A stretch of DNA of 64,000 nt, from assembly GCA_051294905.1 (NCBI GenBank), contig CM119372.1, positions 32,614,001 to 32,678,000 on the forward strand. The letters run 5' to 3'. Shown here piece after piece: positions 5,214-51,369 of this stretch; the first letter of the stretch is position 1, and every line of letters starts with the position of its first letter. Under the pieces are notes generated by a model that saw nothing but the letters and a program-made list of their open reading frames with translations, did not search any database and was not told the DNA's origin. The DNA is from Botryllus schlosseri (Eukaryota). The position numbers and the translations under genes were made by a program.

Positions 5214-5423
5214 GCCGCGACCCACAGGTTGGAAAGCTCATGGCCCAGTGCTACGATCAATTAGTTCTAGTTCTGTAGCTAATTTTAAAAAGTGAGCATA
5301 GGTCTAGTTCTAGTGGAGCAATATGAAAGGTCAGTAGCATGAAAAAGTATGCTTCCAAGAAAACGGAATCATGTTCTAATTTATCACGATACAACAGATT
5401 CTGCCTTATAATATGATTATCAC

Positions 5424-6006: not shown

Positions 6007-6210
6007 ATTATCACTATTCAAAATCAAGCTTCTGAAACGAAATAATAAATCAATCTTGGCGTCACTGATCGCGAATAGATATATAGCCTAACAACTTGAA
6101 ATTTGTAGCTTATTAGCTCAAGTTTAGGAGAATGGCACGCAGATCTCGTTCTCGCGGTAGCCTAATGTCCATTCTCGGCCGTGTCTTTCTCGGTTATGTC
6201 CGTTCTAGGT

Positions 6211-7351
6211 TGGTTGCCATACGTCCGGAATTTCCCGGACATGTCCGGAATTTCACTGTTGAAACTGCGTCCGGGAGGAATTTCTAAAATATGCCTAAAT
6301 GTCCGGAATTTTGAAGGCTTGAAGTAAGCTCATATCTTTTTTTTTCGTAAATCAACCTAAACAAGACTATTTTTTGGCAGATTTTTGCTACATGAAATTT
6401 TTCTTCGCGCTGCGCGCGATTTAGTATTATATATATTGGTTTTAAGATGGAGACTAGCGCCCTCGCAAAGACTGCGATCAAAAAATAAATAAAAAATAAC
6501 ATTCATTTACAAAAAGAAGTCTAATTGTAATCCTAATTACAAGATAGCGGTATTCATAGAGTCGTCGTTTTAGGTCGTTTGGATGCTTTATTCAAAGATG
6601 TTGGTTCTAAACCTGGGGGTAGTTTGCCTTTATTCTGGGGTTCGCGAAGATGTTGAACGTAATTAGCTTCCAAAATTGGCTGTGAGTAGGTCTGGGCAAA
6701 TGTGGCGACCTTTAATTAGTAATTAACTCGTCAAATTTTGAGCTGGGCCACGGCACATTATCAAATTGGAAATGGATTCGCGACCATAAAAGGTTGGAAA
6801 ACACCGGATATGCGGTGTTTATATAGCTCAGTGGTGAAGTGCACACCCGCATTAGGCTGATAAATAATCTTATCGGCGTGACATGAACATGACTTAACGA
6901 TGTACAATTACGCCCCTTGCATTTTCGAAGTCGTCATCCTACATCAGCTCTATTCTACCGTTGACTCTGATTATGTGGACGGAGAGAACATTAAAATTAT
7001 ACAGTAATATATGGAAGAGCCAATATTATTGACACAATTCATTCAAATCATATAACGGACAGATGCATATATTAAACCCCCAGAAGTTGCATCGAATACC
7101 CTACGATGGGCCCAAGACCAGTGTTTATTTGGGTGGGATGGGGCTGCAATATGTGGCTACGGCCCAGGTTACAACATACAATACACAACCACATACTCCT
7201 GAATCGGACCGCGACCACCTCTAGTCGATAGACAAAGCGTTGCTGGTGTGACGTCATATTGATCGACAATGCGCTCACAGCTCATTTTGAAATCCGCTAG
7301 TGGGGGCTGAAGAGCGTCCGGAATTTGTGAAACAAAAATATGGTAACCCTA
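6211..7351. mobile_element. hAT-type element (TAGGGTTACCAT-like ends, GTCCGGAA repeats)
   Basis: Right end ATGGTAACCCTA, degenerate left end TGGTTGCCAT; flanking direct repeat TTCTAGGT (6203-6210, 7352-7359). Confidence 0.6.
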
Positions 7352-18200: not shown

Positions 18201-21200
18201 TCGAGTCTCAACACCATGCCTCGGAGTCTACCATTTGCTCCCTCACTTTGGACTCGGACTTGGTTCGGTATGAATTGAAAATGACGCGACTTGACTCGAG
18301 TCAAAACTATAAAAGCAAGATTGACTTTCGACTCGGAACCTTGTGACGTGATTACAAACCTACTTCGTACCGACTACTCACTTTAGTATTTTTCAGATCT
18401 TTGAAAACCTACTTCCACTTGAAGTAGTTTAACATGTCTTCTAAATCTCTACGTCAGTGGTGCTCGAGTAGAAATTTATAAAGCTACTTTCCTTTCTACT
18501 CGAGTAGCACCGCTGGCTATTTTGACTACCTCAATCAAATCTTTGGTCTGGCCTGCGAAATGAACTCACAATACTGGCAGAAAATATTGAACTTATATCG
18601 TATATTGGCAGGGATGTAATCAAGTCGCAAGGCTCCAAGTCATGGGTCAATCTTCCTTCTAAGTTTTGACTCGAGTCATTTTTAACTCGCCACCGAGTCA
18701 AGTCCGAATCCAAGTCATGGAGCACAGCGTAGAGTCCCGAGTACCAGTTATTCTGCTCACTGTTCATTATCGAGTTCAACTCGGGTTCAATTCATTTTTT
18801 GGAAATTCTCGGCTGATATCAAAGACCTCACATTCAAAATATATTCATCTTCTTACTTTTAATATGTTTATTGAAACAGATAAATCAAGTATCGGTCCTG
18901 ACGCAGGAGTCAATACACAAAGTTAGTCGAGTCGAGTCATTTTCCATTCTTAAGAAAATGACTCCAGTCAAGTTGAAACGAAATCATGTTACTTTAATCG
19001 AGTATACAACCCTGTACATTGGCATATTAGCGGTATCAGTCGGGGCTATATTCAATTTAGATATCTTCAAACTCACGTGACTCCAAAAATCTGAGCGTAA
19101 GCCTCCGATCCAGCAAGTGCATAAGAAATGATGATGACTATGCTGAAAAAGAGAGAATATTTGGCATATCATGCATGCCAGGCTATAATATGCAATACAA
19201 GAAGCGATACTCACAAATGGAAGAATATTACAATCAAAAACATAGGCTGCACCAGCGTCGGCATGAAGAGTTTCGCGATAGCATGGAAGTTTGGCTCGGT
19301 AGTGCCGCTCTCGGGGTCCGGATCTAAAAAACAAGGCAGTGGTATCGTTTTACGGTGATTTGAACGTGTAACTCTTTCTTCTAGGCTCCCACAATAGGAC
19401 AAAAACGATAATTTGTAAATTGACTATTTATTAGCAACGGGGGGCAAACAATTTCCTTACTCAAAAACATCGACACTGACTTCTCGAATCACCAAAATTG
19501 ATACTTTCTTAAAAATCGACTACCGGAATCTTCGTGCCCGTCAGGGTTGTAATGACTCGAGTCAGACTCGAGTCACGATTTTCGGATGACTCGACTCGAC
19601 TAGAGTCTTTTTCTCAAAATACAGAAATGACTCGACTCGAGTCAATCTGTTTATTGACTCGACTTGGACTCGAGTCATTCCGCATGACTCGAAGCAAGTC
19701 ATTGACTCGAGATTGAGACGGCCAAGACCGACATTTCATCGTAATTTCGAAGCCAACACACCATTAGGATTTCCTTTGTTGGTACTGGTGCTTGAAAATG
19801 CGACCAGAAACTGCTTAAAGTGAGGAAAATTGATATATTATAAATGCGAACCATTCAATATCACCAAACAGAGTTAAAAAAGTGGGTTCAGGAAGACTTT
19901 AACTGGAAACTGAGCAGTCAACACAATGACTTGGACTCGGACTCGAGTCATAATACCATGACTCGGACTCGAACCTCTGTTCGCTGACTTGGACTCGGAC
20001 TTGACTCGGTGGAAATTGAAAATGACTCGACTTGACTCGAGTCAAAAATATAAAAGTGAGATTGACTTGTGACTCGGAGCCTTGTGACTTGGTTACAACC
20101 CTGGTGCCCGTCCCATCTGCTCCCACTTGGAGCAGACATTAACGTAATGGCATTATTTCAAACACTTACGATGTTGGGCTTCAAAAGTAGAATACTCTTC
20201 TGTCGGTGCATTGACGACGCTGTTGGGATGATCAGTCGAGCTGTAAAATTTTTAATGAAATAATTGGCCGTACGGTAAATTTTTTTTTTGAGATTAAAAT
20301 CCAGATTACAAAGAGGGGTGTCGGATTGAATCCAGAGTCTATAATTTTACCGACTATCAACCCCAGTGCAAAATGTGTATAGAAAATATTTAGATATTTG
20401 TGGTGAAGTGGATGATAGTAAAGCTAGAAATACTATCGAAAAATAGTCCTACTGCTGTTCCAAGGTACATGATGATTTTCACGGAAATGAAGGTTTTAAA
20501 ATGCAGCATTGTAAATGGGAGCACTGACGCAGACTTGGACAACTAGAAAATGTTCAGCTTTTACAAATTAGATTACAATTAGATTACCGGTATTTCGATC
20601 TAATAAAGTGAAATTAGACAACTAGAATTATTTAGTTGTCCAAGTCTGCACTGACGATACGCCGCAGGCTACAAGCAGTTCTGGGCTCACTCTGAATGAC
20701 TTGAGTCACTACCCTAAAATGACTTGACTCGGCCTCAACGCATTAAAAATATGACATGACTCTTTCACGAATGTTTGGGTCCATTTTTAAATCATGAAAT
20801 ATTCTACATCGCGATAATATTAATCCTTTATTTACTGGATTCCATTTCAGTTTCCGATTTTGATATGATCAGTTCCACCACCAACAACATTACAGACAAC
20901 ACAGTTCCGACATGTCCTTAACTGCCGTAATAATGGATTTGACTGGCATAATAGAATTATAGGCCTACTACCATATTATATTAAATGGAGCATACATTTG
21001 TGAGCGGTCTTTCGTCAAATTAAGTAAATAACCGTGGTGATTGATGTCATCTTAGTATTTTAATTCCGAAATCGCAGCAAATGTAGCTAATTCGATGTAG
21101 CCTAGCCCAGTACTCTTGATATTTTTGGTGTGGTGAGCTCCCAAACTTGTGATGAACTCAAGCACACTGAAGACTTAGGAACACTCAATGTATGTATATA

Positions 21201-24679: not shown

Positions 24680-25602
24680 TAGGCCTATAGGTATTATGTT
24701 CTGAATTCCAGGTAACCTTCCGCGGGCCACTCAAAATCGTGTCGTGGGCCCCATTTGGCCCGCACATTGTCCAGGTCTGCATTAGAAGTTCCCGTATGCA
24801 ATAAGATATCTGACTCACATGATTGCGCATAAAACAGGATCACTTTTCCGGAAGACTTCCAACCAGAAGACTGGACTTCCATACTTAGATAAGAACTGAG
24901 AAATAATGACTGGTTGAATGATCAATGTCCCGAGCAAGTAAGGGAGTTGCTGGTCAGAGTTCGTGCTATAATAGTGAGTCGACAATGAGTCGCATAAAAG
25001 TTTTCGGTAGTGTAGGCCTACCGTATAGGTGGTAAAAGTAGAAGCCTATAGCAACGTCCAATGTAATACAATGTAATTCGAGGGGAATCTAGCTTTGCTT
25101 TGCCTAGAATATAAAATAGATAAGTAGAAGTAGCCTACTCTAAAGTCATAGCCACTGTAGTACCTAGTGCAAACAAACAAAATCTACTTATAGAACTTCG
25201 AAAAGTATAGAATAGCTTCGTTACTGACCACATCTACCCAAGACATACAACGTAGAAAGTATACTAAACTGCAAAACTGGTATTACTCGTAGATTCTTAA
25301 TGGCTAACGATTCATTTGCTCTCTTCATTCACTACCTTGTAGGCCCTATTCGTACTTCGCTGAGTTTTTCGGGCGGGAGTAACAAAGTTACATGTTAGTG
25401 TGATTTACACAACAACAGCTAGATAAATCAATCTCATTTTATGAAAGCTCACTGGTAAGAGCTGTTATTCCATTTTTTAGAACAGGCCCGCGGGCGACTT
25501 ATCTGGTCCTTGCGGGCTACAGGTACTTTAGGCCCACGTTGCTGACCCCTGATCTAGAGTATAGAGCCCGAGAGAAGCACTGGGATGGCAATACCACTGT
25601 GA

Positions 25603-26826
25603 CAGTGTTGCCAACTCCGGATGGAAGAAAATCGCTAAAACTGGTGTCAAAAATCGCTAGATATCGCTAAATATTGAGAAAAAAGCGCTAAAAAATAGCG
25701 CTAAATCTGCATTACTTGCTCAAGGTGTTAAATTGAACCATAATATCAATACACTCTTCTCAATTGTATTTTACTCGTCTGGGGCCAAAGTCACTTATCA
25801 TATTTCTAGTTCATAATATGTATAATAGTATTCTCTAAGCGGAACAAAACGTGCAGTGCATTTCGGTAGAGCGGTTCGCTTTGCGCAATGATCGCTATAC
25901 GTGACCACTGACCAGGTTTGCAGGCATAACCGCTCACTATATAAGCGTGCCTTGCTCCGTGCGTCCGTGAATACGTGATGCGATGTACCGTGGAAATGCG
26001 CTTGACTTCTCTAAACTGAGTGGGAGTACTTGAACACGCGTGTGCGACTTGACACACTTGTACGCGACTTGCGACTTGACCCGATACAACACGACTTGAA
26101 CCGGGTTTGCCAGCCACTAAAAGTAGAGGACCATCCCGGAGTATGAAATTTAATGAATCTGGTCTTGGACGAGAGCTGGTGTCGCACTGATTCCGACAGT
26201 GCAAATTGGATTCTTGTAAAGACAATGGAACGACCTCAAGGCGGCCCCGGGAGTCTGGAGGTCGGCATTGATCAGAACAATCGCTGGACGAAATTGGTCA
26301 TTGTTATGTTCATTGTGTTGCGGCGGTGCCATTGTTGGAGCAATGCTGGTTTTCGGACTTCGGGGGCTGTTTCGGGGTGTATGGTTCCATTGTCCTGACG
26401 AGATTTTGTTTTGTGTCTTCGAGATCACTGCGACACTGGCTTTCGATCGGGGCCAATTATATCAAATTTAAGCGCTCAGGTCGCCAGATGTATAGCACTG
26501 TCAATTATGCTACTTTTAGATAACTCAGCAAGAAGAGACACTGTTTGCCCATGCGTAACCGTCAGGAGTTGCGTATCTATCCGTAGATTAGATAATGCTA
26601 TCATTAATTTCATCGGAGTCCGCACTCTGGTGGCAGATGCGTCGCCAGTCGTCGGCCAGAACCGATCTTTATTAGTTATTTTCGGTAAAAAAGCGCTAAA
26701 TAATCGCTAAATGCCTTTTTAACAATCGCTAGATTTATCGCTAGGCGCTAGATCCAAATTTTTTGGCGCTAAACTGGATGAAAAATCGCTAGATCTAGCG
26801 CGAAAATCGCTAAATTGGCAACACTG
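25603..26826 (+). mobile_element. hAT-type non-autonomous element (CAGTGTTGCCAA; AATCGCTA repeats), copy 1
   Basis: TIRs CAGTGTTGCCAA/TTGGCAACACTG; perfect TSD CACTGTGA (25595-25602, 26827-26834); second copy at 37036-43132. Confidence 0.93.
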
Positions 26827-27486
26827 CACTGTGATGCTAATAGCACATCAGCAGAAATATCATGACCGGGTGAATCATTGTGAATGTACATGGACAACAT
26901 GATTTTTTTTGGTCTATAAAATTTAGGAATAACTGGAATATGTGTTGCCAGATTTCGAAATTCCCAGAAAAACCGGTTGCCAGCTCTTAATATTTAGAGG
27001 TGGTCAACAAAAAGGATCCTATTCCGGCAAATAGACATGCAAATGCCTACATTTTAACGATAAAACCAAAAAATCAGATTCACCCCCTTGCGGGCTCAAA
27101 TGCAGAACTACACATTACTACAATTCGAAATGATTATCCAAACATTACCCCAAAAAATATTTCAGCCTTCGGAACACAATAGGGGACCCACCAGAATCCA
27201 ATGAAAATGGATCATTTTCAGGAAATAGATATGCCAGTACGGATATTATAACGGAATTCCAAAAATCATTTTCACTACTCTGCGGCGTCAAAGGCGTAAC
27301 TACATATATTGCTACAAGTCGAGAGGAGTATCCCAAGATTACCCCCAAAAATATTTCAGCCTTCGGAACACAATAGGGGACCCACCAGAATCCAATGAAA
27401 ATGGGTCATTTTCAGAAAATAGATATGCCAGTACGGATATTATAACGGAATTACAAACATAATTTCCACTAACCTGCGGCGTCAAA

Positions 27487-30458
27487 GGCCCTTTTCATAC
27501 TGGATTTACGAAACTCTTTCGGGAACACGTTCCGAAACAGGCGATGTTCACATAGAGAAAAAATTACCGAAACAGTTCCGGGAAAAGAGCGCGTTCATAC
27601 CTATTTAGAGTTACCGCGAACTTATGTTCATACAGGTCGTTTTTTCGGTAAATTCGCGGGAAATTATGGCCAGTATGAACGCGATTCTCCGTAAGTGTTG
27701 ATAGTTACGAAACCATGTATGTGGGGTGTTCCAGTTGTAATATGCTTGTGGAAAACGATGAGGGATAGGCATATTCGTGAGATGGGGAGAAGTTAGCTCC
27801 AACGTTTAGCTATTGGATGTTGCGGATATGCCTTCTCGATGTGTATGGGGCTCTATATACTCAATATACCAGTATCAGTAATAGAGCCCGAGCATGTTTC
27901 TGGCTTGTATCTTATCAACCGAAGCTGAGAGCAGAAACTGAAAGCCAGCAAAGAGGATAGAGTCCTGGAATGAAAGGAACCACCGATCACACCTGCGTAT
28001 ACAACAAAGTCAGTTTATCTTGGTGATTGCTGTATAATGGTTTGGGTAAATCTAATCGTATGTACACTGTACAGAGAAACCAGGGAATTCGAGAAATCCG
28101 TGAGAGAAACATTTGATATACTCTGCGACGAGCTTCGAGACCATAACGAAAAGCAGCCAGCAAATTATACGAGCTCAATTTCTCTTGCTTGCTGAGTAGC
28201 TGTCGCTCTTTGGAGGCTAGCCAATGAAGCCAATCGTTTATAGATCCAGGTAAACATCAGATGTATTTCAAGAAGGCAACTGTCACAAGTTGATTTTAAT
28301 AAAAATAATTCTGGTGCCTAGTAGGGCTAGACACAATGATTCGACTACTCGAATCTGAATCGAGGATTAACTTTATTGATTCGAGTCGAGTTGGATTGCA
28401 CAGATTGTGAACTTGCAAAGCCAATCAAAAATTTGATTAGTCTGGCAGCAACACTTGAAATGTGATGACTGAAATATCAGTTCCGAATCCGACGCATTGG
28501 CAGATCCATGAGCCAGTCACATTTTGATAGATCTTCGTACACCACAATAAAGCAGAATACTTTGTGATAGATTTATCAAAAGTAAAAATTTTCTACACGC
28601 CTAGCGCAACATCTTGTCACTCGATTTCTTGCTTTTAATATTGTTACCCCTTCGTAAAAATTAAAGAACAACGCCGAATCTACAACGCCGAATCTATCAG
28701 ATTGAGTCTAACTATATATATATTCGCAACCTCCCGTTTGCGCTCGCAAAAAGACCGTCGACTATGAAACCTAGGCACAAAATGATTGCCGCATGTTGGA
28801 CGAAGCTTTCGATATCGATATGTCCAGGTGCCGAATAGTCCAGTCCTTGCAAACTGAGCCCAGCGATATACAGCAGGCTTGCAATATAGTCAAGTGACAA
28901 TATTATTAATCTATCAACTTGAAAAAATTTGCGCGGCTAGTGGCCCGCAGAATATAGTTCGTCAATCGAATGTGGCGATTTGGCTGAAAAGGTTGGCCAC
29001 CCCTGTTCTAGTTGCTAGTTTGAAAATTTTTGTAGTTCTAGTTGAAGTTGCGCATTTTGAAATTCCAGTACTTTGTACAAGTATTGTGGGTGGTTAAAAA
29101 AATTACCACAGCAACATTTGTACCAAACATGCATTTGCCGCATTCAAGTTTTTCAGGATGACTTCACGATTGGGAGCCTGATGGTTCCGTACTAGCATAC
29201 ATAACTGATGACGCAGCCTATCCCTTTCAGCCCTGGCTCATGAACCCTTTTACCTGAAACACAGAGTATAAGCTAAAGCTAATTTCAAATATGTAATATA
29301 AATTTCCTTTCTGCTGCCCTTAAAATTCACAATTGCTTTTTCAGAAACTTAGCAAAGCACACATGAGGTTGAAAGATTTTGGTTGACTGAAGGTGCGGTG
29401 TTCGGCTTTTCTCAGAAACTGCAATCCGCTAAGGCCAGAATGATACAGAGGATGGTATACGCAATGAAGACAAGACCTGGTGGTGATCCAAGTATCGCTG
29501 GCCCAGACGTCGGAAATGCCCTGTGTGACTTTCTCAAATAAACAATGCTCTTGCTTAACCAGATGTGTTTGTGCTGTTTCATTTTATTCATGACATTTTA
29601 TTCATGAGAGAAACTATAGCTTGATGCACACTTGCACAGTTCCACCTTTTTCATCAGTATCCTCCATCTAGACCTGCGAAAAGATCAGATTAAGTTACAC
29701 TTGCATAACAAAGGAATGACTTGGTTGTAACAAGAAAATGAAGGCATAGGTGAAAACCAAATTATGGCTTGGATGATGTACGATGGCTCACCAGCCCGTT
29801 GGTACAATTTGAATTTTGGTTAGTGAGTCAGAGCTAAGGACATCATTCCCTGCTGTGCTGCCACTATCAAAGCAGATGTTACTAAATCCCCTTTTCAGTA
29901 GGTGTATATATGACGGTGACTGACCTACGCACATCATATCCGTGGTTAGAAACTTGCCTTTGATATAACAAATTTGGTAAGGGTAGAGATCACCTACCAA
30001 ATTAGTGTTGAAGTCCGAAAGTTTTCAGGCAACTCACCCAATGCTACATCATTTGGAGATGGTGTTGTACCTTTTTAGCTGTGCTCTGTTTACAAAACCA
30101 CAGAAAAAAGAAGCTGACTAGTAGTCAGTGACTACGTATTGTGAGCATACAGAATATATATCCAAGAATAATGCATTCCCAACACCATTACACAATAAGA
30201 TCAAAATGCCGCAGATAGCTGACCTCGAAATACAACCAGCCTGAATGAACAGCGCGTTACCGTAACTAAAAGTTTGATTGACAGCGTTCCGGGAACCCAG
30301 CTGCGCCATTCGCGTTCATACTCAGTCGGTCCCGTAAAAATCTCCGAAAATAAGCGCGTTCATACCGCCCCGAAACACCAGTGTTATGTTCACATAGAGG
30401 GGTTCCGGTAAACATTTTCGAGAAATGTTATTCCCGGAACCCCGGTATGAAAAGGGCC
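27487..30458 (+). mobile_element. PIF/Harbinger transposon, decayed
   Basis: TIRs GGCCCTTTTCATAC/GTATGAAAAGGGCC; 3-bp TSD AAA, confirmed by the uninterrupted repeat unit (GTCAAAGGCGTAACT); internal transposase remnants. Confidence 0.92.
28082..29400 (+). pseudogene. Harbinger DDE transposase remnant (HARBI1/DDE_Tnp_4-like)
   Basis: Reads RETFDILCDELRD...*VAVALWRLAN (28103-28225), YITDDAAYPFQPWLMNPF (~29198-29251) and KLSKAH...FG*LKVR (~29345-29397), matching Harbinger motifs; contains stops, deletions and MITE fragments (~28322-29005). Confidence 0.85.
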
Positions 30459-30504
30459 AAAGGCGTAACTACATATTGCTACAAGTCGAGAGGAGTATCC
30501 CAAC

Positions 30505-31049
30505 CAGGGTTGTAACCAAGTCACAAGGCTCCGAGTCACAAGTCAATCTCACTTTTATAGCTTTGACTCGAGTCAAGTCGAGTCATTTCAACTCATCGCC
30601 AAGTCAAGTCCGAGTCCAAGTCAGCGAGCAGAGGATCGAGTCCGAGTCATGGAATTATGACTCGAGTCCGAATCCAAGTCATTGTGCTGACTGCTCAGTT
30701 TCAGTTAAAGTCTTGGTAAACCCACTTTTTATCTCTGTTTGGTGATATAGAAGGTTCGCATTTATAATATACCAATTTCCTCACTTTTAGCAGTTTCGGT
30801 AGCATTTTCAATTACAGACAGACGAAATACCAATAGTGTGTTGGCTTCGAAATTACAGTGAAATGTCGGTCTTGGCCGTCTGAGTCTCGAGTCAATGACT
30901 TGGTTCGAGTCATGCGCAATGACTCGAGTCCAAGTCGAGTCAATACACAGATTGACTCGAGTCGAGTCGAGTCATTTCCATGTTTTGAAAAAATGACTCG
31001 AGTCAAGTCGAGTCATCAGAAAATCGTGACTCGAGTCATTACAACCCTG
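30505..31049 (-). mobile_element. hAT-type MITE (GACTCGAGTC family) inserted in the 192-bp array
   Basis: TIRs CAGGGTTGTAA/TTACAACCCTG; perfect TSD ATCCCAAC, also seen as the empty site in neighbouring units. Confidence 0.95.
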
Positions 31050-32522
31050 ATCCCAACATTACCCCCAAAAATATTTCAGCCTTCGGAACACAATAGGGGA
31101 CCCACCAGAATCCGATGAAAATGGATCATTTTTCAGGAAATAGACATACCAGTATTGATATTATAACGGAATTACAAACCTAATTTTCACTACCCTGCGG
31201 CGTCAAAGGCGTAACTACATATTGCTACAGGTCGAGAGGAGTATCCCAACATTACCCAAAAAAATATTTCAACCTTCGGAACACAATAGGGGACCCACCA
31301 GAATCCGATGAAATGGATCATTTTTCAGGAAATAGACATACCAGTATTGATATTATAACGGAATTATAAACCTAATTTTCACTACCCTGCGGCGTCAAAG
31401 GCGTAACTACATATTGTTAAAAGTCGAGAGGAGTATCCCAACATTACCCCCAAAAATATTTCAGCCTTCGGAACACAATAGGGGACCCACCAGAATCCGA
31501 TGAAAATGGATCATTTCTCAGGAAATAGACATACCAGTATTGGTATTATAACGGAATTACAAACCTAATTTTCACTACCCTGCGGCGTCAAAGGCGTAAC
31601 TACATATTGTTAAAAGTCGAGAGGAGTATCCCAACATTACCCCCAAAAATATTTCAGCCTTCGGAACACAATAGGGGACCCACCAGAATCCAATGAAAAT
31701 GGATCATTTTCAGGAAATAGATATGCCAGTACGGATATTATAACGGAATTCCAAAAATTATTTTCACTACCCTGCGGCGTCAAAGGCGTAACTACATTAT
31801 GCTACAAGTCGAGGGGAGTATCCCAACATTACCCCTAAAAATATTTCAGCCTTCGGAACACAATAGGGGACCCACCAGAATCCAATGAAAATGGATCATT
31901 TTCAGGAAATAGATATGCCAGTACGGATATTATAACGGAATTCCAAAAATCATTTTCACTACTCTGCGGCGTCAAAGGCGTAACTACATATTGCTACAAG
32001 TCGAGAGGAGTATCCCAACATTACCCCTAAAAATATTTCAGTCTTCGGAACACAATAGGGGACCCACCAGAATCCGATGAAATGGATCATTTTTCAGGAA
32101 ATAGACATACCAGTATTGATATTATAACGGAATTACAAACCTAATTTTCACTACCCTGCGGCGTCAAAGGCGTAACTACATATTGTTAAAAGTCGAGAGG
32201 AGTATCCCAACATTACCCCCAAAAATATTTCAGCCTTCGGAACACAATAGGGGACCCACCAGAATCCGATGAAAATGGATCATTTCTCAGGAAATAGACA
32301 TACCAGTATTGGTATTATAACCGAATTCCAAAAATCGTTTTCACTACCCTGCGGCGTCAAAGGCGTAACTACATATTGCTACAAGTCGAGAGGAGTATCC
32401 CAACATTACCCCCAAAAATATTTCAGCCTTCGGAACACAACAGGGGACCCACCAGAATCCGATGAAATGGATCATTTTTCAGGAAATAGACATACCAGTA
32501 TTTATATTATAACGGAAGTTAG

Positions 32523-33910
32523 AAACGTCATATTCACCCTCATCTCCTGCGGCCTCACAGACAGAACGGAATTACAAACAAAATCATTTCTAATCTAGTA
32601 AACCGCAAGGAGAGTACGGATCAGGAAATTGAAAATGCCGTCAGGGAATCTGCTGAGGCTTGTAAGTTTCCAGAGGGACAACAGCAAGATGCCATAGAAT
32701 TTTTCGAGCTCTGCAATATTCCCACAATTTTGGAAAAGGCCAAAGTGAATTGCGACACGCATATTGAATTACGAGGAGCTTGCCAATCCTGTGGCTTCAT
32801 AAATCAATCGACCACAAACAAAACAGTCATTCGTCTTGTTGTCGGGGATAATGCACCTGAGTCACTGGAGGACAATATCCGAAAACAATTCGATGATTCG
32901 ACGACAGAACATTGTTTGAAATGTAACTCTATGGTGGATATGCATCGTCAGATCTTGTCGACTCCGACTTTATTGGTCGTTCATGCACCAAGGAACGATC
33001 GCAGCAATATTCTTTCCTACAGTCTCGCAGCAGCGGAAAACATTAAATATGGAGGCAAGTGCTTTAATTTATACGCCGTAGTTTCAAGGCTTGGTGAATC
33101 GGTCAACGCGGGGCACTACGTCACCAACGTATTGAAAAAGGATGGTACCGCAGTTGTTTATGATGACAAAACCGTTTATCGAGAAAGCCGTGACGTTTCA
33201 TCTACTGTGAAGACTCAGAATGGATACATATTTTTTTATGTAAGACGCCCAGATAAGCGTCTGATTATAAGCGACGATGATTCTACCGCCGACGAAGATG
33301 AGACTCCAAAACAAAAAATTGTGAAGAGGAAAAGAATGAGACCAATTGAAAATGTGGAAATCAGGATGGAAAATGTGACGGAGTTCCAAATGATAATATT
33401 TAAAATACCACAAGAATTTGACGAAATCTTTGCTGACGGTTTAGTTTCGTACTTCGAAGTAAACAGCTTTGTGTGAAAGGCCTCGAAACGCGTGCCAGGA
33501 GCCAAATCATCAAACTCACAGATCTTTTCTTATCAACAAGAAATTAATGATGATGCAATCCAGATTGGCTCAGCGTACTCCGTCCAAAGCGCCGGCAGAC
33601 TTATTACCAGAAGATCAAATTGGAAACTTGTATTGGTATTTGATGTCGAAGTTATGCCTGCATAAGAAACTCTTCAGAAAATGTGTCAATTCGACTGTCA
33701 CTGTGCACGCGATCAGCACCACGTATCACGAATGTGTTCAATCCATCGGTCATCAAAAAAGATTGTGAACTGATGAAAGTGTTGGAGCCCGATTTTCGTG
33801 CAGATGAATACTTCCGACACGTTATACTCAAAGAGGTCTGCATTAAATATGTAATAATTGATCGCCGATTTTTACTTGTATCCTATATATTTGCGACGAA
33901 CTCTATATAA
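32523..33910 (+). pseudogene. Ubiquitin-specific protease (peptidase C19/UCH)-like fragment lacking the Cys box
   Basis: Frame open 32523-33476 with GQQQDAIEFF, CQSC and CLKC finger cysteines, PTLLVVH, LYAVVSRLGESVNAGHYVT...VYDDKTV and GYIFFYVR; no GxxNxGNTC box upstream; coding-like sequence continues through stops and a frameshift to ~33910. Confidence 0.85.
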
Positions 33911-34019
33911 CCCTGGTTTGCATTCGCATTTACGATCTAACGTGAATGTTTGACTTTAGACGAACATCAACGAACATGACATGACTCGACATTATTCCTG
34001 TTTTTTTTTCGGAAAAGTT

Positions 34020-36430
34020 TATGATTGGGATAGTCATTTCGACCTGTAGCACAGTGTAGTTCTGCCTGTGAGGCCGCAGGAGAAGGGGGTAAATATGATG
34101 GTAGCAATATGTAGTTACGCCTTTGACGCCGCAGGGTATAGTGAAAATTATGTTCGTAATTCCGTTATAATATCAATACTGGTATGTCTATTTCCTGAAA
34201 ATGATCCATTTTCATCGGATTCTGGTGGGTCCCCTATTGTGTTCCGAAGGCTGAAATAATTTTGGGGGTAATGTTGGGATACTCCTCTCGACTTGTAGCA
34301 TTATGTAGTTACGCCTTTGACGCCGTAGGGTAGTGAAAATGATTTTTGGAATTCCGTTATAATACCAATACTGGTATGTCTATTTCCTGAGAAATGATCC
34401 ATTTTCATCGGATTCTGGTGGGTCCCCTATTGTGTTCCGAAGGCTGAAATATTTTTGGGGGTAATGTTGGGATACTCCTCTCGACTTTTAACAATATGTA
34501 GTTACGCCTTTGACGCCGCAGGGTGGTGAAAATTGTGTTTGTAATTCCGTTATAATATCAATACTGGTATGTCTATTTCCTGAAAATGATCCATTTTCAT
34601 TGGATTCTGGTGGGTCCCCTATTGTGTTCCGAAGGCTGAAATATTTTTGGGGGTAATGTTGGGATACTCCTCTCGACTTGTAGCAATATGTACTTACGCC
34701 TTTGACGCCGCAGGGTAGTGAAAATGATTTTTAAAATTTCCGTTATAATATCAATGCGAGCATGTTTATATCCTGAACAATGATCCAGCCAATTTCATTG
34801 GATTCTGGTGGGTCCCCTATTGTGTTCCGAAGGCTGAAATATTTTTAGGGGTAATGTTGGGATACTCCTCTCGACTTGTAGCAATATGTAGTTACGCCTT
34901 TGACGCCGCAGGGTAGTGAAAATGATTTTTGGAATTCCGTTATAATATCCGTACTTGCATATCCATTTCCTGAAAATGATCCATTTTCATCGGATTCTGG
35001 TGGGTCCCCTATTGTGTTCCGAAAGCTGAAATATTTTTGGGGGTAATGTTGGGATACTCCTCTCGACTTGTAGCAATATGTAGTTACGCCTTTGACGCCG
35101 CAGGGTAGTGAAAATAATGATTTTTGGAATTCCGTTATAATACCAATACTGGTATGTCTATTTCCTGAAAAATGATCCATTTTCATCGGATTCTGGTGGG
35201 TCCCCTATTGTGTTCCGAAGGCTGAAATATTTTGGGGGGTAATGTTGGGATACTCCTCTCGACTTGTAGCATAATGTAGTTACGCCTTTGACGCCGCAGG
35301 GTAGTGAAAATTAGGTTTGGAATTCCATTATAATATCAATACTGGTATGTCTATTTCCTGAAAATGATCAATTTTCATTGGATTCTGGTGGGTCCCCTAT
35401 TGTGTTCCGAAGGCTGAAATATTTTTAGGGGTAATGTTGGGATACTCCTCTCGACTTGTAGCAATATGTAGTTACGCCTTTGACACCGCAGGGTAGTGAA
35501 AATGATTTTTGGAATTCCGTTATAATACCAATACTGGTATGTCTATTTCCTGAGAAATGATCCATTTTCATCGGATTCTGGTGGGTCCCCTATTGTGTTC
35601 CGAAGGCTGAAATATTTTTGGGGGTAATGTTGGGATACTCCTCTCGACTTTTAACAATATGTAATTACGCCTTTGACGCCGCAGGGTAGTGAAAATTATG
35701 TTTGTAATTCCGTTATAATATCAATACTGGTATGTCTATTTCCTGAAAATGATCCATATTCATTGGATTCTGGTGGGTCCCCTATTGTGTTCCAAAGGCT
35801 GAAATATTTTTGGGGGTAATGTTGGGATACTCCTCTCGACTTGTAGCAATATGTACTTACGTCTTTGACGCCGCAGGGTAGTGAAAATGATTTTTAACAT
35901 TTCCGTTATAATATCAATGCGAGCATGTTTATATCCTGAACAATGATCCAGCCAATTTCATTGGATTCTGGTGGGTCCCCTATTGTGTTCCGAAGGTTGA
36001 AATATTTTTTAGAGTAATGTTTGGATACTCCTCTTGACTTGTAGCAATATGTAGTCACGCCTTTACGCCGCAGGGTAGTGAATATGATTTTTCAAATTTC
36101 CGTTATAATATCAGTGTGGGAATTTCTATTTCCTGATAAATGATCCATTTTCATTGGACTTTGGTGGGTAATCTATTGTCTATGGTCTGTGATTTTGATT
36201 GTTGCGTCATACTGTGCCTTTTTGGCTTCAGTGTGCCGATAACTCTTGAAAAGAGGCACCCGAAAAGTCTTTGAGTTTAATAAATATACTGCTACAATGG
36301 ATGTTGTATTGAAAGCTGTAATCTATTGTGTTCCGAAGATTTAAATATTTTTTTGGGTAATGTTGGGATAGTCATCTCGAATTGCAGCACGGTGTAGTTC
36401 TTCCTTTGAGACTGCAAGCGGGTAAATCTG
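34020..36430 (-). repeat. Right tandem array of ~192-bp units, inverted relative to the left array (~11-12 units)
   Basis: GTTGGGAT recurs at 34273, 34466, 34658, 34856, 35048, 35244, 35436, 35628, 35821 and onwards; outer units are degenerate. Confidence 0.95.
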
Positions 36431-37960
36431 ATTTTTGAAATTTCTCGTTTCTTAACATCAAGAACTGGCAACTGGTTTTCCAGAGAATTTTGAGATCTGG
36501 CAACCCATGTTCCAGTTATTCCTAAATTTTATATACGGAAAAAATACGTTATTTCCATGTACATTCACAATGATTCACCCGGTCATGATATTTCTGCTGA
36601 TGTGCTATTAGCATCACAGTGGTATGGCAATATGCCGCTCAAATGATGATAAAGGCCTGCAAATCCTAATATCCAAGGTTAGAAGCTTAGAACGAGAACT
36701 GAAGAAGAGAGATTCGATTTTACATCAGTTTCAATTGTTATATAATTTTATAGTAAAATGCGCCAATTTGGAGCCAACGCGTCAAACGTAATTTTTCGTT
36801 GCCAAACGACCTTTAAAACAGCCAAATTTCCGAAATTTGGCACTCAAATGCGCCAATTGCAATTGGCAGTGCGCCTGATTGGAATCGCTGGCCTTTTTGC
36901 CTGATATATCAGGTGAGCAGCGATGATTTTCCAAGTTAAAGTAATTTAATAAAAAATAATCAAAAAATAGAATATAGTGTGAGCACAGGACACCGATTCC
37001 ATACAGGCCAGTGCGCAATTGTCAGTGCTATCCTCCAATGTTGCCAACTCCGCAACTCCGGATGGAAGAAAATCGGTAAAACTGGTGTCAAAAATCGCTA
37101 GATGTCGCTAAATATTGAGAAAAAAGCGCTAAAAAATAGCGCTAAATCTGCATTGATTGCTAAAGGTGTTAAATTAAACCATAGCCTTTACAAACTAGCC
37201 TGGAAGCGGCAGACCGATTCAGTGCTTTTGTTGTTCCGTGCAGCGACACCGCGTGTAAGACTGCGACTTTCAATTTCTGCAGCCATTTGATACTTGGAGA
37301 TGTGTGTATTCTGCATATCTACCCGATCGATCTGACTGAGGAAGAACTCAAAGAAATGTTTAAAGACGTAAGTAATAGCTATAAAACATCAAGGACAGAA
37401 ATAAAATACGTCCTTTCTTGTGGTAACTGATGATATACAAATTATTTCAATAGAGCAGTGAAATCAAACGGAATCAGGGAGTAGGCCTACTCTCCCCGTT
37501 GCTGTTCTGTTGATCCAAGCTTGTTGAAAAGTCGGATGACGTGTTGCTCATATTATGTTTCAGAATGAAGAGGACGTAGTTGTAACGTCAAATGAAGAGG
37601 GATGTTTTGAGATTCAAACTGGAGATATTGATATCGGATGTTAACTGCCGTCACTTTCATCTTCACAACAAAGATCTGTACAGTACTGCTGGTGCTGGGG
37701 TTATAGATCCTCTCTACTGGGATCATAACTATTATTGGTGTGACATTAGATATGACTCTGCAACCCAACGGAATACTCAACAATGTGAGTAATAATTATT
37801 TACCGCGTTTTTTTCGGACGATTTGTGCTTCTAAACTTGTCCCTGGAAACAGCAGAACCATACTATAAAATGACTGAAAAATTGCAAACTAACAGCATAT
37901 CATTGCAAAGAACAGTATATTTAAAAAATATCGATCATACTGTAGCTATGTCCTACATAG

Positions 37961-41226: not shown

Positions 41227-41663
41227 CGGCTAGATATATATACAAAATACGCACAGGTCCAAGTAGCAAATGGCCGCAGAAAATGAAAGTCGCAGTCTTA
41301 CACGCGGTGTCGCTGCACGGAACAACAAAAGCACTGAATCGGTCTGCCGCTTCCAGGCTAGTTTGTAAAGGCTATGATTAAACCATTATATCAATACATT
41401 CTTCTCGGCTATATTTTACTCGTCTGGGGCCAAAGTCACTTATCATATTTCTTTTTCATAATACGGAATAGTCATCTCTAAGCGGGACAAAACGTGCAGT
41501 GCATTTCGATAAAGCAAATTGCTTTGCACAATGATCGCTATACGTGACCACTGAGCAGGTTTGCAGGCATAACCGCTGAATATATAAGCGTGCCTTGCTC
41601 GATGCGTCCGTGGATACGTGATGCGATGTACCGTGAAAAGTGCGCTTGACTTCTTCTCTAAAC

Positions 41664-42297
41664 CATAGTGTCCTATATGGTGTCGACACAAGCAAATCTC
41701 ACGGTTCAATGAAATTGTATCACGTCGCAATTTCCATTTGGCAACAGGCAATTTGACGGTTATCTTTGACCGGCTTGCCGGGCAATAAATTTGATGAATC
41801 GGGTATCAATCGAAAGCTGACTCCGCACTGATTACGAAAATATAAATTTTATTCCACTCATGGCCCTGGAACCCCCACAATCAGCCCCAAATTATTCATT
41901 GTTGAGTAGATTGGCAGTGTGACGCAACAATGCTGTCTGGCGAAACGAGAGAGAAACTCAAGAGCAAGGATGCGACCGAGCGGCGAGAGTGGGATCCTCT
42001 TGAGTTTCTCTCTCGTTTCGCCAGACAGCATCGTTGCGTCACACTGCCAATCTACTCAACAATGAATAATTTGGGGCTGATTGTGGGGGTTCCAGGGCCA
42101 TGAGTGGAATAAAATTTATATTTTCGTAATCAGTGCAGAGTTAGCTTTCGATTGATACCCGATTCATCAAATTTATTGCTCGGCAAGCCGGTCAAAAATA
42201 ACCGTCAAATTGCCTGTAGCCAAATGGAAATTGTGACGTGATACAATTTCATTGAACCGTGAGATTTGCTTGTGTCGACACCATATAGGACACTATG
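41664..42297. mobile_element. Palindromic P-type MITE
   Basis: Termini CATAGTG...CACTATG, ~300-bp nearly perfect inverted arms with a short loop; 7-bp TSD TCTAAAC (41657-41663, 42298-42304; empty site at ~26030). Confidence 0.93.
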
Positions 42298-43339
42298 TCT
42301 AAACTGTGTTGGAGTACTTGAACACGACATGCGACTTGACACACGTGAACACGATATGCGACTTGACCCGACTCAACACGACTTGAACCGGGTTTGCCAG
42401 CCACTATACGTGAGACGCTAAGAAAATAATCCGAGGAACAACCCGGGGTATGAAATTTAATTAATCTGGTCTTAAACGAAAGCTAGTGTCACACTGATTC
42501 CGACAATACGAATTAAATTCTTGTCAAGACAACGACCTCAAAACAGCCCCCAAAGTCTGAAAATCGGCATTGATCATACAGAACAATCGCTGAACGAAAT
42601 TGGTCATTGTTATGATCATAGTGTTGCGGCGGTGCCATTGTTGGAGCAATGCCGGTTTTCAGATTTTGGGGGCTGTTTTGGAGTGCATGGTTCCATTGTC
42701 CGGACGAGATTTTATTTCGTATTTTCGAAATCACTGCGACACTAGCTTTAGATCATGGCCAATTATATTAAATTTCAGCGCTCAGGTCGCCAGATGTAGC
42801 ACTGCTACTTTTAGATTACTCAGCAAGAAGAGACACTGTTTGCCCATGCGTAACCGCCAGGAGTTGCGTATCTACTATCTATCCGTATAGGTTAGTAATC
42901 TATAATTATATATCATAGGAGTCCGCACTCTGGTGACCGGTATAGCGAATGTAGTGGTCGGTCAGAACTGATATTTATTGGTTATTTTCGGTAAAAAAGC
43001 GCTAAATAATCGCTAAATACTTTATCAAAAATCGCTAGATTTATCGCTAGGCGCTAGATCCGTATTTTTTGGCGCTAAACCGGATGAAAAATCGCTAGAT
43101 CTAGCGCGAAAATCGCTAAATTGGCAACACTGCTATCATCACTATTGCATTCGCATTTCGCAAGACATTAATATTAGCAAGTCGAGCAGAACGGTGGTCA
43201 GTGAAGCATGTCTGATAACCTGCTGGAGTTGTAAACACTGATACAAGCCCCACGTTATAGTAGTTGATCTGCGTTATAGTCCTTAATCTGACAATTCAAC
43301 GAGAATGCGATTACATTAACTATTGCCTCAGATACAGCT

Positions 43340-44827: not shown

Positions 44828-45694
44828 TAGGGTTGTAATGACTCAAGTCACGATCTTCTGATTCTGATGACTCGACTTGACTCGAGTCATTTTCTTAAAA
44901 CACGGAAATGACTCGACTCGACTCGAGTCAATTTGTGTATTGACTATACTTGGACTCGAGTCATTGCGCATGACTCGATCCAAGTCATATGACTCGATAC
45001 TCAGACGGCCAAAACCGTCATTTCATTGTAATTTCGAAGTAAGGTAACCACACTATTTAGATTTCGTCTATTGGTACTGGTGCTTGAAAATGCGACCAGA
45101 AACTGCTAAAAGTCTGAAAAATTAGTTTATTATAAAGACGAACCATTCGATGTCACCAAATAGAGTTATAAAAAGTGGGTTTAACATAGGGTTACAATAT
45201 TTTGGAATCAGGGAAGGAGGACACTTTTTTAATATTTTCAGACTTACAACACTGGAGTAAAATCCTGTAGAAATGATCAATTAAACACGAAATTTTGGTT
45301 GGTTTACTAAAGAAAAGTCGTCGCCTACGTTCGAACCACGAATTACCTGTTTAGCATCATTTATGCCCATTTTCACTCGAATCTATACCCATCATCTTTG
45401 CTCTAAAGGCTGTAAAGGAGGACATTGAGGCGTCCTCGGGAGACATTTTAAAAAACTTGATAAAAGAGGACAAATCCTTTTTTATGACGTACGGTAACCC
45501 TAGTTTAACAATACTTTAACTAGAAACTGAGCAGTCAACACAATGACATGAAGTCGGACTCGACCCTCTGCTCGCCGACTTGGACTCGGATTTGACTCGG
45601 TTGTGAATTGAAAATGACTCGACTTGACTCGGTTACAACTATAAAAGTGAGATTGACTTGTGACTCTGAGCCTTGTGACTTGGTTATAACCCTG
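44828..45694 (+). mobile_element. GACTCGAGTC-family MITE with nested TAGGGTTAC MITE (45187-45502)
   Basis: Outer TSD ATCATTGA and inner TSD GTTTAACA are both perfect. Confidence 0.9.
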
Positions 45695-49683: not shown

Positions 49684-50823
49684 TCAAATAGAATGACGTT
49701 GTGCACTCGATGCAGTATCCACCACTTGACCAGGTAGTGCTACCGAGATGCGCGGAGAGGGGATGTGACACTCGTCAATTTGTCTCCGTTCACTGTGTGT
49801 TGATGGATCAGCCCCCACTTGCTGGAGCTCATCGCTGGGTGTTTCGTGAGTGTTCGATTGATTTGCAGTTTGCATGCAAGCGGGAATGGCGTTCTGAATG
49901 TCTTCAATCAGTCGCTTGCTTGCGGTTTTGATATCGGCTGATGCAATATAGTAAAGGAAGGGATTGACACATTCGCAAATGCGAAGGACGCCATGAGCCG
50001 TCAAGATAAGCGGTAAAAAGACGTGTTCGGGAATCAGCATTTTTTTAGCTGCCATATATGTCCTGACCGTGAAATCAACAGAGTATCCCAAAGCATGGGT
50101 GGTTACAATTGCCACCAATTGAATCAGGGCTTGTTTCTCTGTACGCGACGAAGATGACATTCGGTGTAATCGGCGATGTACGAGAAATACTATCAACACA
50201 GAACAGAATACCAATATTAGAATTGATGGAATGATTGCACCAATTACAGTTGACAATATGACCGTAATTATATACTCTACATCCATCCTCCTCGAAACAG
50301 TGCAGTGATGCGTGTCACCATTTTGATCATATTCGATAATGCTAATGGCTATGCCTATGTGAACGAGAAAGGTACTGATATACGAAGTGACAACAAAAAT
50401 ACGACATCTCTTTGTTGTCATGTTCATGGTGAATCCGGTAATTTTTGTGATGCTCACTAATCGTATGAGACTCAACAGAAAAACATGATGGACAGTGATG
50501 TAGGTTGTTGCGCTGTCCACCGGTAGCCAAACGAAACAAGAGAGCCATGGAAGTCTGTAGTCCCATTTGTTCAGTTGTGAGTAAACAAACAGTGGGCTGT
50601 TGAAACCGGAAATGATATCCGAGAAGCAAAGTCCAGTTATGATGACAGTGAAGAAAGTCGGCTTCATACGAAACAAAATTATTACCATTAGCGTATTCAT
50701 GATCACTCCAAATATGGACAAAAAAGTGACCGCTGCCCAAATGCTCGATTCCTGCATTGCAGTGAGATTGAAGTTGTCCAATGAAATATTCATCGGTGCT
50801 ATCGAACGCTGCTCAGTGCTCAT
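49684..50823 (-). CDS. Class A (rhodopsin-like) GPCR, single coding exon, orphan
   Basis: 379-aa ORF with seven hydrophobic segments, N-terminal N-glycosylation sequons, GxxxN in TM1, LCFSD in TM2, Cys at the top of TM3 and in ECL2, TM5 Pro, and NPFLY in TM7. Confidence 0.92.
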   Translation of the reverse strand: MSTEQRSIAPMNISLDNFNLTAMQESSIWAAVTFLSIFGVIMNTLMVIILFRMKPTFFTVIITGLCFSDIISGFNSPLFVYSQLNKWDYRLPWLSCFVWLPVDSATTYITVHHVFLLSLIRLVSITKITGFTMNMTTKRCRIFVVTSYISTFLVHIGIAISIIEYDQNGDTHHCTVSRRMDVEYIITVILSTVIGAIIPSILILVFCSVLIVFLVHRRLHRMSSSSRTEKQALIQLVAIVTTHALGYSVDFTVRTYMAAKKMLIPEHVFLPLILTAHGVLRICECVNPFLYYIASADIKTASKRLIEDIQNAIPACMQTANQSNTHETPSDELQQVGADPSTHSERRQIDECHIPSPRISVALPGQVVDTASSAQRHSI

Positions 50824-51369
50824 TCGAGAGATCTAAATATCCATCAGGATTCGCGAATGCAGCTGACTTTATGATACTTGATGTTTGACTGCATGTATTA
50901 GTTACATTCCTATGGAGGAATTGATGGATGGAATAAATAATAAATTGTTGATCATATGAGTAGTAATAATAATAATAAAATAACTTTATAGCGCCGAATA
51001 AAGTTATATATCATCGCTACACTAGAGCGCTGGACAAGGGCAATATAACGATATGCATATGAGACAGAGTACACCAGCTCGTACAAACTCGAAAGAGCAC
51101 AACGCGCAACACTCGCCTCACAGTCTGTTTTCAGATTTTAATATGGCTTATTCGATAGGACAGTATAAGTGTGGGAATTATGAAGTGCACAAACTATGTA
51201 GCCTATAGGTGACTGTCATTTGAAGCAATTCAAAAAGCAGCAGACCCATCTTGAAAGGTGAGTAGGTCTACTTACCAACGGCAATACATGTCGGTCCACT
51301 TGTTGCATCTAACTAGAATCTATCGGGATTTCGGAAGACAGCGAGGTTACGTTGGTTAGGTCAAGTTGA

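What the first reader, a model, noticed from the sequence alone, without database searches (positions are those of the whole stretch)
25593..36623. Foldback transposon with satellite arms carrying a deubiquitinase (USP) domain
Seen: direct repeat ATGGCAAT, unique outer TIR, ~10 x 192-bp units, 1.4-kb core, ~11-12 inverted units, TIR, ATGGCAAT. The intronless core encodes USP boxes (QQDAxEF, two CxxC, GHY...YDD, GYIFFY), then an acidic/basic NLS-like stretch and further decayed coding sequence. The Cys box is lost at the junction with the array, and no transposase is visible. Established: some DNA transposons carry Ulp1 or OTU proteases. A C19/USP cargo in a foldback element is not something I recognise. 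Inference: this is a deletion derivative of a larger autonomous element that may use a deubiquitinase, for example against silencing. The terminus is ambiguous (8-bp TSD with AC ends, or 6/4-bp TSD with longer TIRs), so the superfamily is unassigned.
Basis: partly seen in the sequence, partly recalled or inferred. Interest (0 to 1): 0.8.

Follow-up and report, generated by a model that had tools for sequence, protein, structure and literature searches.

The report
Broken foldback transposon, deubiquitinase remnant
This is a real, broken jumping-DNA copy in an animal genome, with repeat-filled mirror-image arms around the back part of a ubiquitin-removing enzyme gene, and it is likely the shrunken remnant of a large Mutator-like element whose one long protein would join a DNA-cutting enzyme to a SUMO-type and a ubiquitin-type protease.

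Summary
The structure is real: direct repeat, 172-bp outer inverted ends, 10 left and about 11 right 192-bp units, and a 1.45-kb core with a USP domain (Pfam UCH, E 3e-12) lacking its Cys box. Three nested insertions (4.76 kb) pad the left arm. Contigs of four public runs end the inverted repeat at 36623 against other flanks, which rejects the 6- and 4-bp readings; empty-site-like contigs hold one copy of the duplicated letters. Contigs of three runs carry the core, and one has a different 5' end. The core's order (USP, acidic/basic linker, family tail) matches the C-terminus of unnamed 2,000-2,200-residue PHD / Mutator-type DDE / Ulp1-like / USP proteins. The tail scores 16.3 bits against at most 9.7 in 1,000 shuffles, but the USP tree is weak (54/76). 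Best reading: dead, internally deleted derivative of a Rehavkus-like MULE foldback. No call showed these arms and a transposase on one DNA molecule. C19 or UCH cargo is already reported for other DNA transposons; I did not find the MULE-Ulp1-USP fusion in print. The scan noted this architecture before, on other DNA of this genome (8 notes).

The parts
25585..25592 (+). left target-site duplication (8 bp; 25585-25593 under the 9-bp reading)
25593..25602 (+). first 10 nt of the left outer inverted repeat
25603..26826 (.). nested 1,224-bp element with short inverted ends and an 8-bp duplication (hAT-like by recalled end pattern); splits the left terminus
26827..26998 (+). rest of the left outer inverted repeat (first 8 nt are the nested element's duplication)
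   Evidence: 87.8% over 172 nt to 36450-36621
27009..27486 (+). left arm, outer part: divergent outer unit and two 192-194-bp units
27487..30458 (.). nested 2,972-bp element, 14-bp inverted ends, 3-bp duplication, decayed Harbinger-like motifs (label recalled; no Pfam match for the 31-residue remnant)
30459..30504 (+). array fragment between the two nested elements
   Evidence: 100% to other units over 47 nt
30505..31049 (.). nested 545-bp MITE with 8-bp duplication; related copies elsewhere in the window
31050..32567 (+). left arm, inner part: 7.7 units of 192 bp and a truncated divergent inner unit (32528-32567 matches 34059-34098 reversed at 37 of 40)
32565..32580 (+). deletion junction: 15-nt exact copy of an array motif found at 6 other places in the arms
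32581..33245 (+). USP (C19) domain without its Cys box; QQDAxEF, finger CxxC pairs and His box present
33246..33335 (+). acidic then basic linker, as in the full-length relatives
33336..33907 (+). family-specific C-terminal tail, broken by frameshifts near 33456 and 33711 and by a loss of about 116 nt near 33855 relative to other copies
34023..36449 (-). right arm: divergent inner unit, 10.7 units of 192 bp, degenerate outer unit
36450..36623 (-). right outer inverted repeat; terminus at 36623
36624..36631 (+). right target-site duplication

Best explanation
This is a transposase-less foldback transposon copy with a USP fragment in its core, likely the internally deleted remnant of a Rehavkus-like Mutator (MULE) element whose single long gene would encode PHD finger, DDE transposase, Ulp1-like protease, USP and a C-terminal tail. 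Shown: the inverted ends, arrays, duplication, nested insertions, the USP fragment with linker and tail, other insertion sites of the same end, and a contig with another 5' end. Inferred: a deletion removed everything from the inner end of the left arm to just past the USP Cys box, likely by template switching during gap repair (array-derived filler at the junction); the shortened element was moved in trans by the parent transposase binding the ends and arrays, then decayed and collected three insertions, one of which split its left terminus. The fragment has no catalytic cysteine and cannot be an active USP. In the parent, the two proteases most likely remove SUMO and ubiquitin from the transposase or from chromatin at the element, protecting the enzyme from degradation and easing silencing (untested; about 50%).
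For: Ends: in all 4 runs laid, contigs leave the inverted repeat behind 36623 into other flanks (2 contigs per run), including one with left-type internal sequence and 0 mismatches; contigs resembling the empty site carry the duplicated letters once. Core: 512, 2 and 29 contigs of three runs lie on it, those of the DNA run spread over 99+, 95-99, 90-95 and under 90% identity (186/202/108/16); all three runs lack the window's 7-nt insertion and 2-nt loss, which links three stop-free pieces; one contig has 229 other letters upstream of 32581. Relatives: of 97 hits, P0004, P0007, P0009, P0010 and P0008 carry Ulp1-like and/or transposase-like regions; P0007 led to clusters with near-identical 2,006-2,193-residue members on several long contigs. 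These have D..D..CxxH..E, Ulp1-like H and QxDxxSCG, and intact USP Cys and His boxes. The transposase region's nearest Atlas clusters are MULE families (0.90-0.94), and a low-confidence model's top 10 PDB rows are all DDE transposases or RAG (E 0.0015-0.025). Tail profile of 6 relatives: best of 1,284 six-frame chunks of the window lies at 33302-33860 (E 0.05); the read-through with X scores 16.3 bits, 1,000 shuffles at most 9.7; among 120 stored proteins only 11 of this family carry the tail. By pairwise score 5 of the top 7 USP domains are of transposon-type polyproteins and the first (P0002) falls beside them in trees. Substitutions between copies: 14 of 36 synonymous, 0 stops, 24% expected (p 0.03). 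Rehavkus are described as foldbacks with satellite arms and PHD-bearing MULE-related transposases (PMC6446971, 10.1101/2024.12.02.626372).
Against: No call put these arms and a transposase on one DNA molecule: no genome was held, and scans of metagenome and viral contigs found nothing. Relatives are only 20-28% identical and known as proteins without DNA context. The USP tree does not place the window firmly: unresolved among 81 rows, joined to the helicase-linked P0003 and outside the family's branch (94) among 28 rows, and on the family's side only at 54/76 after P0003 was left out. Profile competition did not discriminate: family profile 93 bits, random sets of six other hits median 97, maximum 118. 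The tail alone is weak (E 0.05). Pfam MULE did not match the relatives even at E 10; the fold model had pLDDT 43 and no match at E 0.001 or better. The duplication is 8 bp with symmetric ends, whereas 5 of 6 tabulated Rehavkus have 9 bp. Only 40 of 53 variant sites were shown and 36 were counted; the DNA run may be a pool, so contig counts are not copy numbers.
Confidence: 0.75

Rival explanations
1. Pack-type capture: a gene-less foldback with these arms picked up the USP-linker-tail piece from a different mobile element (another MULE polyprotein family), so arms and cargo have separate origins.
For: The junction filler shows template switching; arms and transposase were never seen together; MULEs are known to capture sequence (PMC6446971, passages); the inverted end is covered far more deeply than the core in the same DNA run (about 4,000-7,000 against 300-1,200 summed word depth; not copy numbers).
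Against: The piece is exactly the 3' end of such a gene, followed by a short spacer and a complete right arm, while the left arm is the truncated one: the pattern of a one-sided internal deletion. The core's variants lean synonymous.
Confidence: 0.13
2. The USP piece comes from a Helentron (HLE2), in which UCH domains are reported, and was captured by or inserted into the foldback.
For: UCH is enriched in HLE2 subgroups (PMC11417382, passages). P0003 (PIF1 + UCH) and P0006 (UCH + DUF6570) rank 3rd and 6th of 97 hits; the window joined P0003 in two trees.
Against: P0003 is the longest branch (3.0-4.5 changes per column) and its E-value is inflated by three repeats; P0003 and P0006 match the window only over the USP region and lack the tail; a two-sequence profile scores 61 bits against 93 for the family.
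Confidence: 0.06
3. One-off capture of a processed host USP gene.
For: The fragment is intronless; named host USP arrays appear among the hits (P0001, P0005).
Against: Those hits cover only about 65 residues at 34-36% and owe their rank to tandem repeats; host-type profile 34 bits; host clade is well supported (100/99) and excludes the window; two word-index searches found no close protein; many variant contigs hold the core.
Confidence: 0.03
4. The truncated USP is kept for a function of its own, for example as a catalytically dead ubiquitin-binding decoy made from non-autonomous copies.
For: The reading frame is open over 317 codons and the other copies' indels extend it; slight synonymous excess.
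Against: No start codon or leader was seen before the domain; the window's copy has private frameshifts and some contigs have further 1-nt losses; the synonymous excess is explained as well by descent from several parental copies.
Confidence: 0.03

Closest known systems
Rehavkus (Repbase group in or beside MULE; Rehavkus-1_TC, -3_TC, -1_HR, -2_Nvi, -1_DY). Seen: PMC6446971 passages, part of Table 1 and six rows of supplement 2; 10.1101/2024.12.02.626372 passages
   Same: Foldback build with satellite arrays in both inverted ends; element size of 5-18 kb; relatives of the core carry a PHD finger and a MULE-type DDE region
   Different: 8-bp duplication under symmetric ends (9 bp tabulated); this copy has no transposase; the passages read list no USP domain; no Rehavkus sequence was compared
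MULE / Mutator superfamily, with Muta1 of Aedes aegypti as the tested model (PMC5225508 abstract and section 11; PMC5499845 abstract and section 17)
   Same: 8- or 9-bp duplications; non-autonomous derivatives with unequal numbers of subterminal repeats are moved in trans, and more repeats raise excision; D, D, H, E order in the relatives
   Different: Muta1 transposase is 504 residues without proteases; the relatives here are about 2,000-2,200 residues with a longer D2-E spacing (269 against 136)
Protease-bearing DNA transposases: Ulp1 in Mutator and Ginger1, OTU in Ginger1 and Helitrons, C19 fused to a transposase_11 domain in Trichomonas (PMC2836005, passages)
   Same: Ubiquitin-like protease fused to a transposase; C19 itself has this precedent
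   Different: There one protease per transposase is described (Ginger1: OTU or Ulp1, not both); here the relatives carry Ulp1-like and USP in tandem, in either order (P0106 against P0008)
Helentrons (HLE2) with UCH, OTU or VTD deubiquitinases (PMC11417382 passages; PMC9741609 passages)
   Same: Transposon-borne deubiquitinases; VTD domains of zebrafish Helitrons were shown to be active, and protection from proteasomal degradation was proposed
   Different: Rolling-circle elements with RepHel that insert between T and T; the window has long inverted arms and a target duplication and no helicase match

Membership tests
Rehavkus | Long inverted ends with subterminal tandem repeats | tested here: met
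Rehavkus | 9-bp target-site duplication | tested here: inconclusive
   8 bp perfect with the symmetric ends that one search supports; 9 bp if one A was lost at the left junction; no second copy with both flanks
Rehavkus | MULE-related DDE transposase with PHD finger in the element | tested here: not met
   Absent from this copy (full-length relatives match the window only over the USP region); present in relatives P0007, P0099, P0100 (PHD E 1e-5 to 4e-3; motifs)
Rehavkus | Transposase groups with Repbase Rehavkus sequences in a tree | not tested
MULE / Mutator superfamily (non-autonomous member) | 8-11-bp duplication directly outside long inverted ends | tested here: met
   range from PMC6446971
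MULE / Mutator superfamily (non-autonomous member) | Derived from an element with a MULE DDE domain | tested here: inconclusive
   Linked through USP, linker and tail; relatives look MULE-like by Atlas and motifs but not by Pfam; no DNA link
USP / peptidase C19 | Pfam UCH above cut-off, His box with GHY and Asp | tested here: met
USP / peptidase C19 | Cys box with the catalytic cysteine | tested here: not met
   Match starts at profile position 68; alignment starts about 50 residues after the relatives' Cys box
Helentron (HLE2) | RepHel gene; insertion between T and T without a long duplication | tested here: not met
Polinton / Maverick (recalled: 6-bp duplication, AG ends) | 6-bp duplication | tested here: not met
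   Other copies end at 36623, not 36624 (8 contigs behind 36623; 2 behind 36625 and one piece ending at 36624 fit chance extension)
Captured host USP gene | Close match to a host USP | tested here: not met
   the host's own genome could not be searched

The most novel reading that the evidence does not exclude
The parent is an undescribed clade of giant Rehavkus-like foldback transposases that carry their own SUMO-type and ubiquitin-type proteases, both active and both needed for transposition, to undo SUMO-then-ubiquitin destruction or silencing at the element: a transposon-encoded counter-defence against a two-tag host pathway. In addition this family may prefer targets that resemble its own end (14 of 18 at this site).
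Probability: 0.3. Interest if true: 0.7.

Novelty: new variant of a known kind. Interest (0 to 1): 0.42.

Why it matters
The copy itself is dead. Its value is as a pointer to large transposases that keep a Ulp1-like and a USP domain together, with catalytic motifs intact in several unrelated assemblies and in both domain orders, which suggests selection for the pair. Why transposons carry ubiquitin-like proteases has been an open question since at least 2010 (PMC2836005); full-length members such as P0106 or P0115 would allow a direct test with activity probes and a yeast excision assay, and a mini-element like this one is a ready donor substrate.

Tried and rejected
No whole genome was held, so copy number and paired flanks could not be counted. 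Word-index protein searches at near and longer lengths: 0 hits among 594 and 1,921 candidates. Exact 26-nt end pattern in metagenome contigs: 0. Transposase alignment against metagenome and viral contigs: 274 and 65 pattern matches, none confirmed. Rfam over 25000-37500: 0. Expression: no RNA holder listed; one single-cell RNA run gave 2 reads in the 3% read; this decides nothing. Trees: the careful search did not finish for 81 rows and 28 rows, quick trees were read; 14 near-duplicate ids were set aside and 18 short rows dropped; the finished tree has 27 rows, P0003 left out. Profile competition was uninformative. The fold model was poor. The idea that the 192-bp unit is a repeated Cys-box exon was dropped: the unit has stops in all six frames of the copy translated. 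Staying in the USP frame through the stop at 33474 gave no tail match. A Transib/RAG reading of the CACTGTG motif near the end was dropped: no 5-bp duplication and other copies keep the two outer bases. Look-ups of earlier findings by sequence and by relatives returned nothing. Literature searches for the fusion; none listed a paper describing a MULE transposase with USP; only listings were seen for most.
Full report
1. Observation. The window is AT-rich animal-like DNA (about 40% GC) with a rhodopsin-family receptor ORF and a THAP fragment, dense in repeats. ATGGCAAT occurs exactly twice, at 25585-25592 and 36624-36631. Inside these, the two ends are identical over 70 nt once a nested insertion is skipped, and 87.8% alike over 172 nt. 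The left arm has 10 unit anchors and the right 11; the 17 full units that could be cut out are 89-99% alike, and several left units have their nearest or second-nearest match on the right arm. Three nested elements, each with inverted ends and its own duplication, fill 4.76 kb of the left arm; without them the element is about 6.27 kb. One of them sits 10 nt inside the left terminus, so this copy most likely cannot move again (inference).

2. The core. ORF 32523-33476 matches Pfam UCH at 47.1 bits (cut-off 23.9) over profile positions 68-254. The His box resembles USP5 and a yeast USP chain in the PDB. The Cys box is absent. The inner end of the left arm matches the inner end of the right arm at 37 of 40 letters and then stops; a 15-nt exact copy of an array motif follows, and then the USP sequence. 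This is the pattern expected of a deletion with template switching (inference from general knowledge of gap repair).

3. Other copies. Twenty of 24 listed runs, from 7 studies of one organism, hold the core or part of it. On the core, 512 contigs of a DNA run, 2 of a second and 29 of a third were laid. All three lack 7 nt that the window has near 33456 and carry 2 nt that it lacks near 33711; loose ends in two runs and one long contig of the third show about 116 extra nt near 33855. These differences connect three stop-free pieces, so the window's copy has private damage. One contig has 229 other letters upstream of 32581; the 30 shown are stop-free in the USP frame by hand translation, as a parental form would be; whether they reach a Cys box cannot be seen. 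Of 36 substitutions counted (40 of 53 sites were shown; 3 past the pieces and 1 at a break were left out), 14 are synonymous and none makes a stop, against 24% expected for the same transition share (p 0.03): weak evidence of past selection.

4. The ends. On 36530-36720, all 4 runs show contigs leaving the repeat behind 36623 (2 per run); 5 of the 8 pieces shown for one run stop exactly there; one contig with left-type internal sequence also reaches 36623 without mismatch (24 of 169 pieces and 22 of 32 loose-end rows were shown). Two contigs leave behind 36625 and one piece ends at 36624. The ends are therefore AC...GT and the 6- and 4-bp readings are not supported. Contigs that match the right flank continue into a likeness of the left flank with the duplicated letters once, so the insertion is real; the target is itself repeated, so these may be paralogues and not empty alleles. 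An 8-bp duplication with symmetric ends and a 9-bp one with a single A lost at the left junction give the same empty site and cannot be told apart from one copy. Muta1 makes both lengths (PMC5225508, abstract).

5. Relatives. A full HMMER scan gave 97 hits, none close. Pfam on 30 of them and the sequences of the top 10 showed tandem host USPs (P0001, P0005; 'USP17/42-like' is my recalled label), helicase-linked proteins (P0003, P0006) and a set with full-length USP matches followed by an acidic/basic linker (P0004, P0007, P0009). P0007 (2,074 residues) has PHD, a transposase-like region, a Ulp1-like region and USP. Searching with its residues 900-1400 found P0099 and P0100, whose clusters hold 14 and 3 members, several of 2,006-2,193 residues at 96-99% identity on different long contigs, as a multi-copy element would give. 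P0106, P0115 and P0007 have D, D, CxxH and E in MULE order, Ulp1-like H and QxDxxSCG, and complete USP Cys and His boxes; P0008 has the end of the transposase region, USP and then Ulp1. The transposase region's nearest Atlas clusters are MULE families; Pfam MULE does not match; a poor model ranks DDE transposases first without reaching E 0.001.

6. The link between the window and that family. For: same order and spacing of USP, linker and tail; a tail profile from 6 relatives finds its best place in the whole window exactly behind the linker (E 0.05 among 1,284 chunks), gives 16.3 bits on the read-through with X against at most 9.7 in 1,000 shuffles, and marks only 11 family members among 120 stored proteins; pairwise scores put family members at ranks 2, 3, 6, 7, P0008 at 4 and the helicase-linked P0006 at 5. 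Against: profile competition on the USP domain did not separate the family from random sets; trees leave the window unresolved, pull it to the longest branch, or set it on the family's side at 54/76. The window's family is thus a distant sister of the P0106 group, not a member of it. No call showed arms and transposase together.

7. Mechanism. Shown: an insertion with duplication, a multi-site end, a one-sided truncation, an inactive USP fragment. Inferred: origin by internal deletion from a PHD-DDE-Ulp1-USP-tail gene; movement in trans, with the arrays as added binding sites (in Muta1 more subterminal repeats raise excision, PMC5499845 section 17; not tested for 192-bp units). Predicted for the parent: removal of SUMO and ubiquitin from the transposase or nearby chromatin, with the PHD finger as a likely histone reader. 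Helitron VTD domains are active deubiquitinases and protection from degradation was proposed for them (PMC9741609, passages); a role in repair signalling was proposed earlier (PMC2836005, passages).

8. Comparison. It works like a non-autonomous MULE foldback of the Rehavkus kind. Membership of Rehavkus is not established: arms met, duplication inconclusive, transposase absent from this copy, tree not run. USP cargo is not new for DNA transposons: a C19 domain fused to a transposase in Trichomonas (PMC2836005) and UCH in Helentrons (PMC11417382). Seven searches and passages of PMC6446971, PMC13359780 and 10.1101/2021.09.26.461848 gave no description of a MULE transposase with USP, or with Ulp1 and USP together. 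The library lacks Repbase Reports and most subscription journals; bioRxiv supplements were closed and HELIANO's Table S11 was not read; any of these may hold such a description. 10.64898/2026.09.13.751287 (one passage) describes NOF_FB as a foldback with a satellite in its inverted ends.

9. Earlier notes of the scan. My reading was entered before the first look-up. Eight notes on other DNA of this genome describe the same architecture, some with the transposase in place; they are unchecked and were not counted as evidence.

10. Verdict. Real element, dead copy, new variant of a known kind. Interest 0.42; 0.7 if the two proteases prove active and needed for transposition (about 30%).

Noticed in passing
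window 25576-25593 against the element's first 18 nt: The target site resembles the element's own end: 14 of 18 letters, with 0 such matches in 105,600 positions elsewhere in the window; empty-site-like contigs are one letter closer. One insertion only; target preference or chance.
   Followed up: partly
window 25540-25592 and 36632-36720: The target is itself a repeated sequence and the empty site reads as a short open, coiled-coil-like frame, probably a piece of another element's gene.
   Followed up: partly
window 25603-26826 and 41377-43133: The element nested in the left terminus has a related copy near 41377-43133 that holds a further 634-bp palindromic insertion at 41664-42297.
   Followed up: no
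window 27487-30458: Nested Harbinger-like element with decayed transposase motifs near 29160-29430 and further repeats inside (28320-29010 match 1286-1879 and 56750-56821).
   Followed up: partly
window 9509-10077, 19565-20105, 30505-31049, 44829-45694: MITE family with at least four copies at 82-89% identity.
   Followed up: no
   Followed up: no
window 49684-50832: Intact single-exon rhodopsin-family receptor ORF (Pfam 7tm_1, E 2e-11).
   Followed up: no
window 34820-35983: The right arm holds an internal duplication of several units: two 198-nt variant units 1,163 nt apart differ at 2 positions.
   Followed up: partly
proteins P0008 and P0030: USP followed by Ulp1, the reverse of the order in P0106 and P0115; P0008 also has the end of a transposase-like region, which suggests that the pair was assembled or rearranged more than once.
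   Followed up: partly
protein P0003: Nematode protein with three repeats of PIF1 helicase plus USP-like domains, likely Helitron-derived.
   Followed up: no
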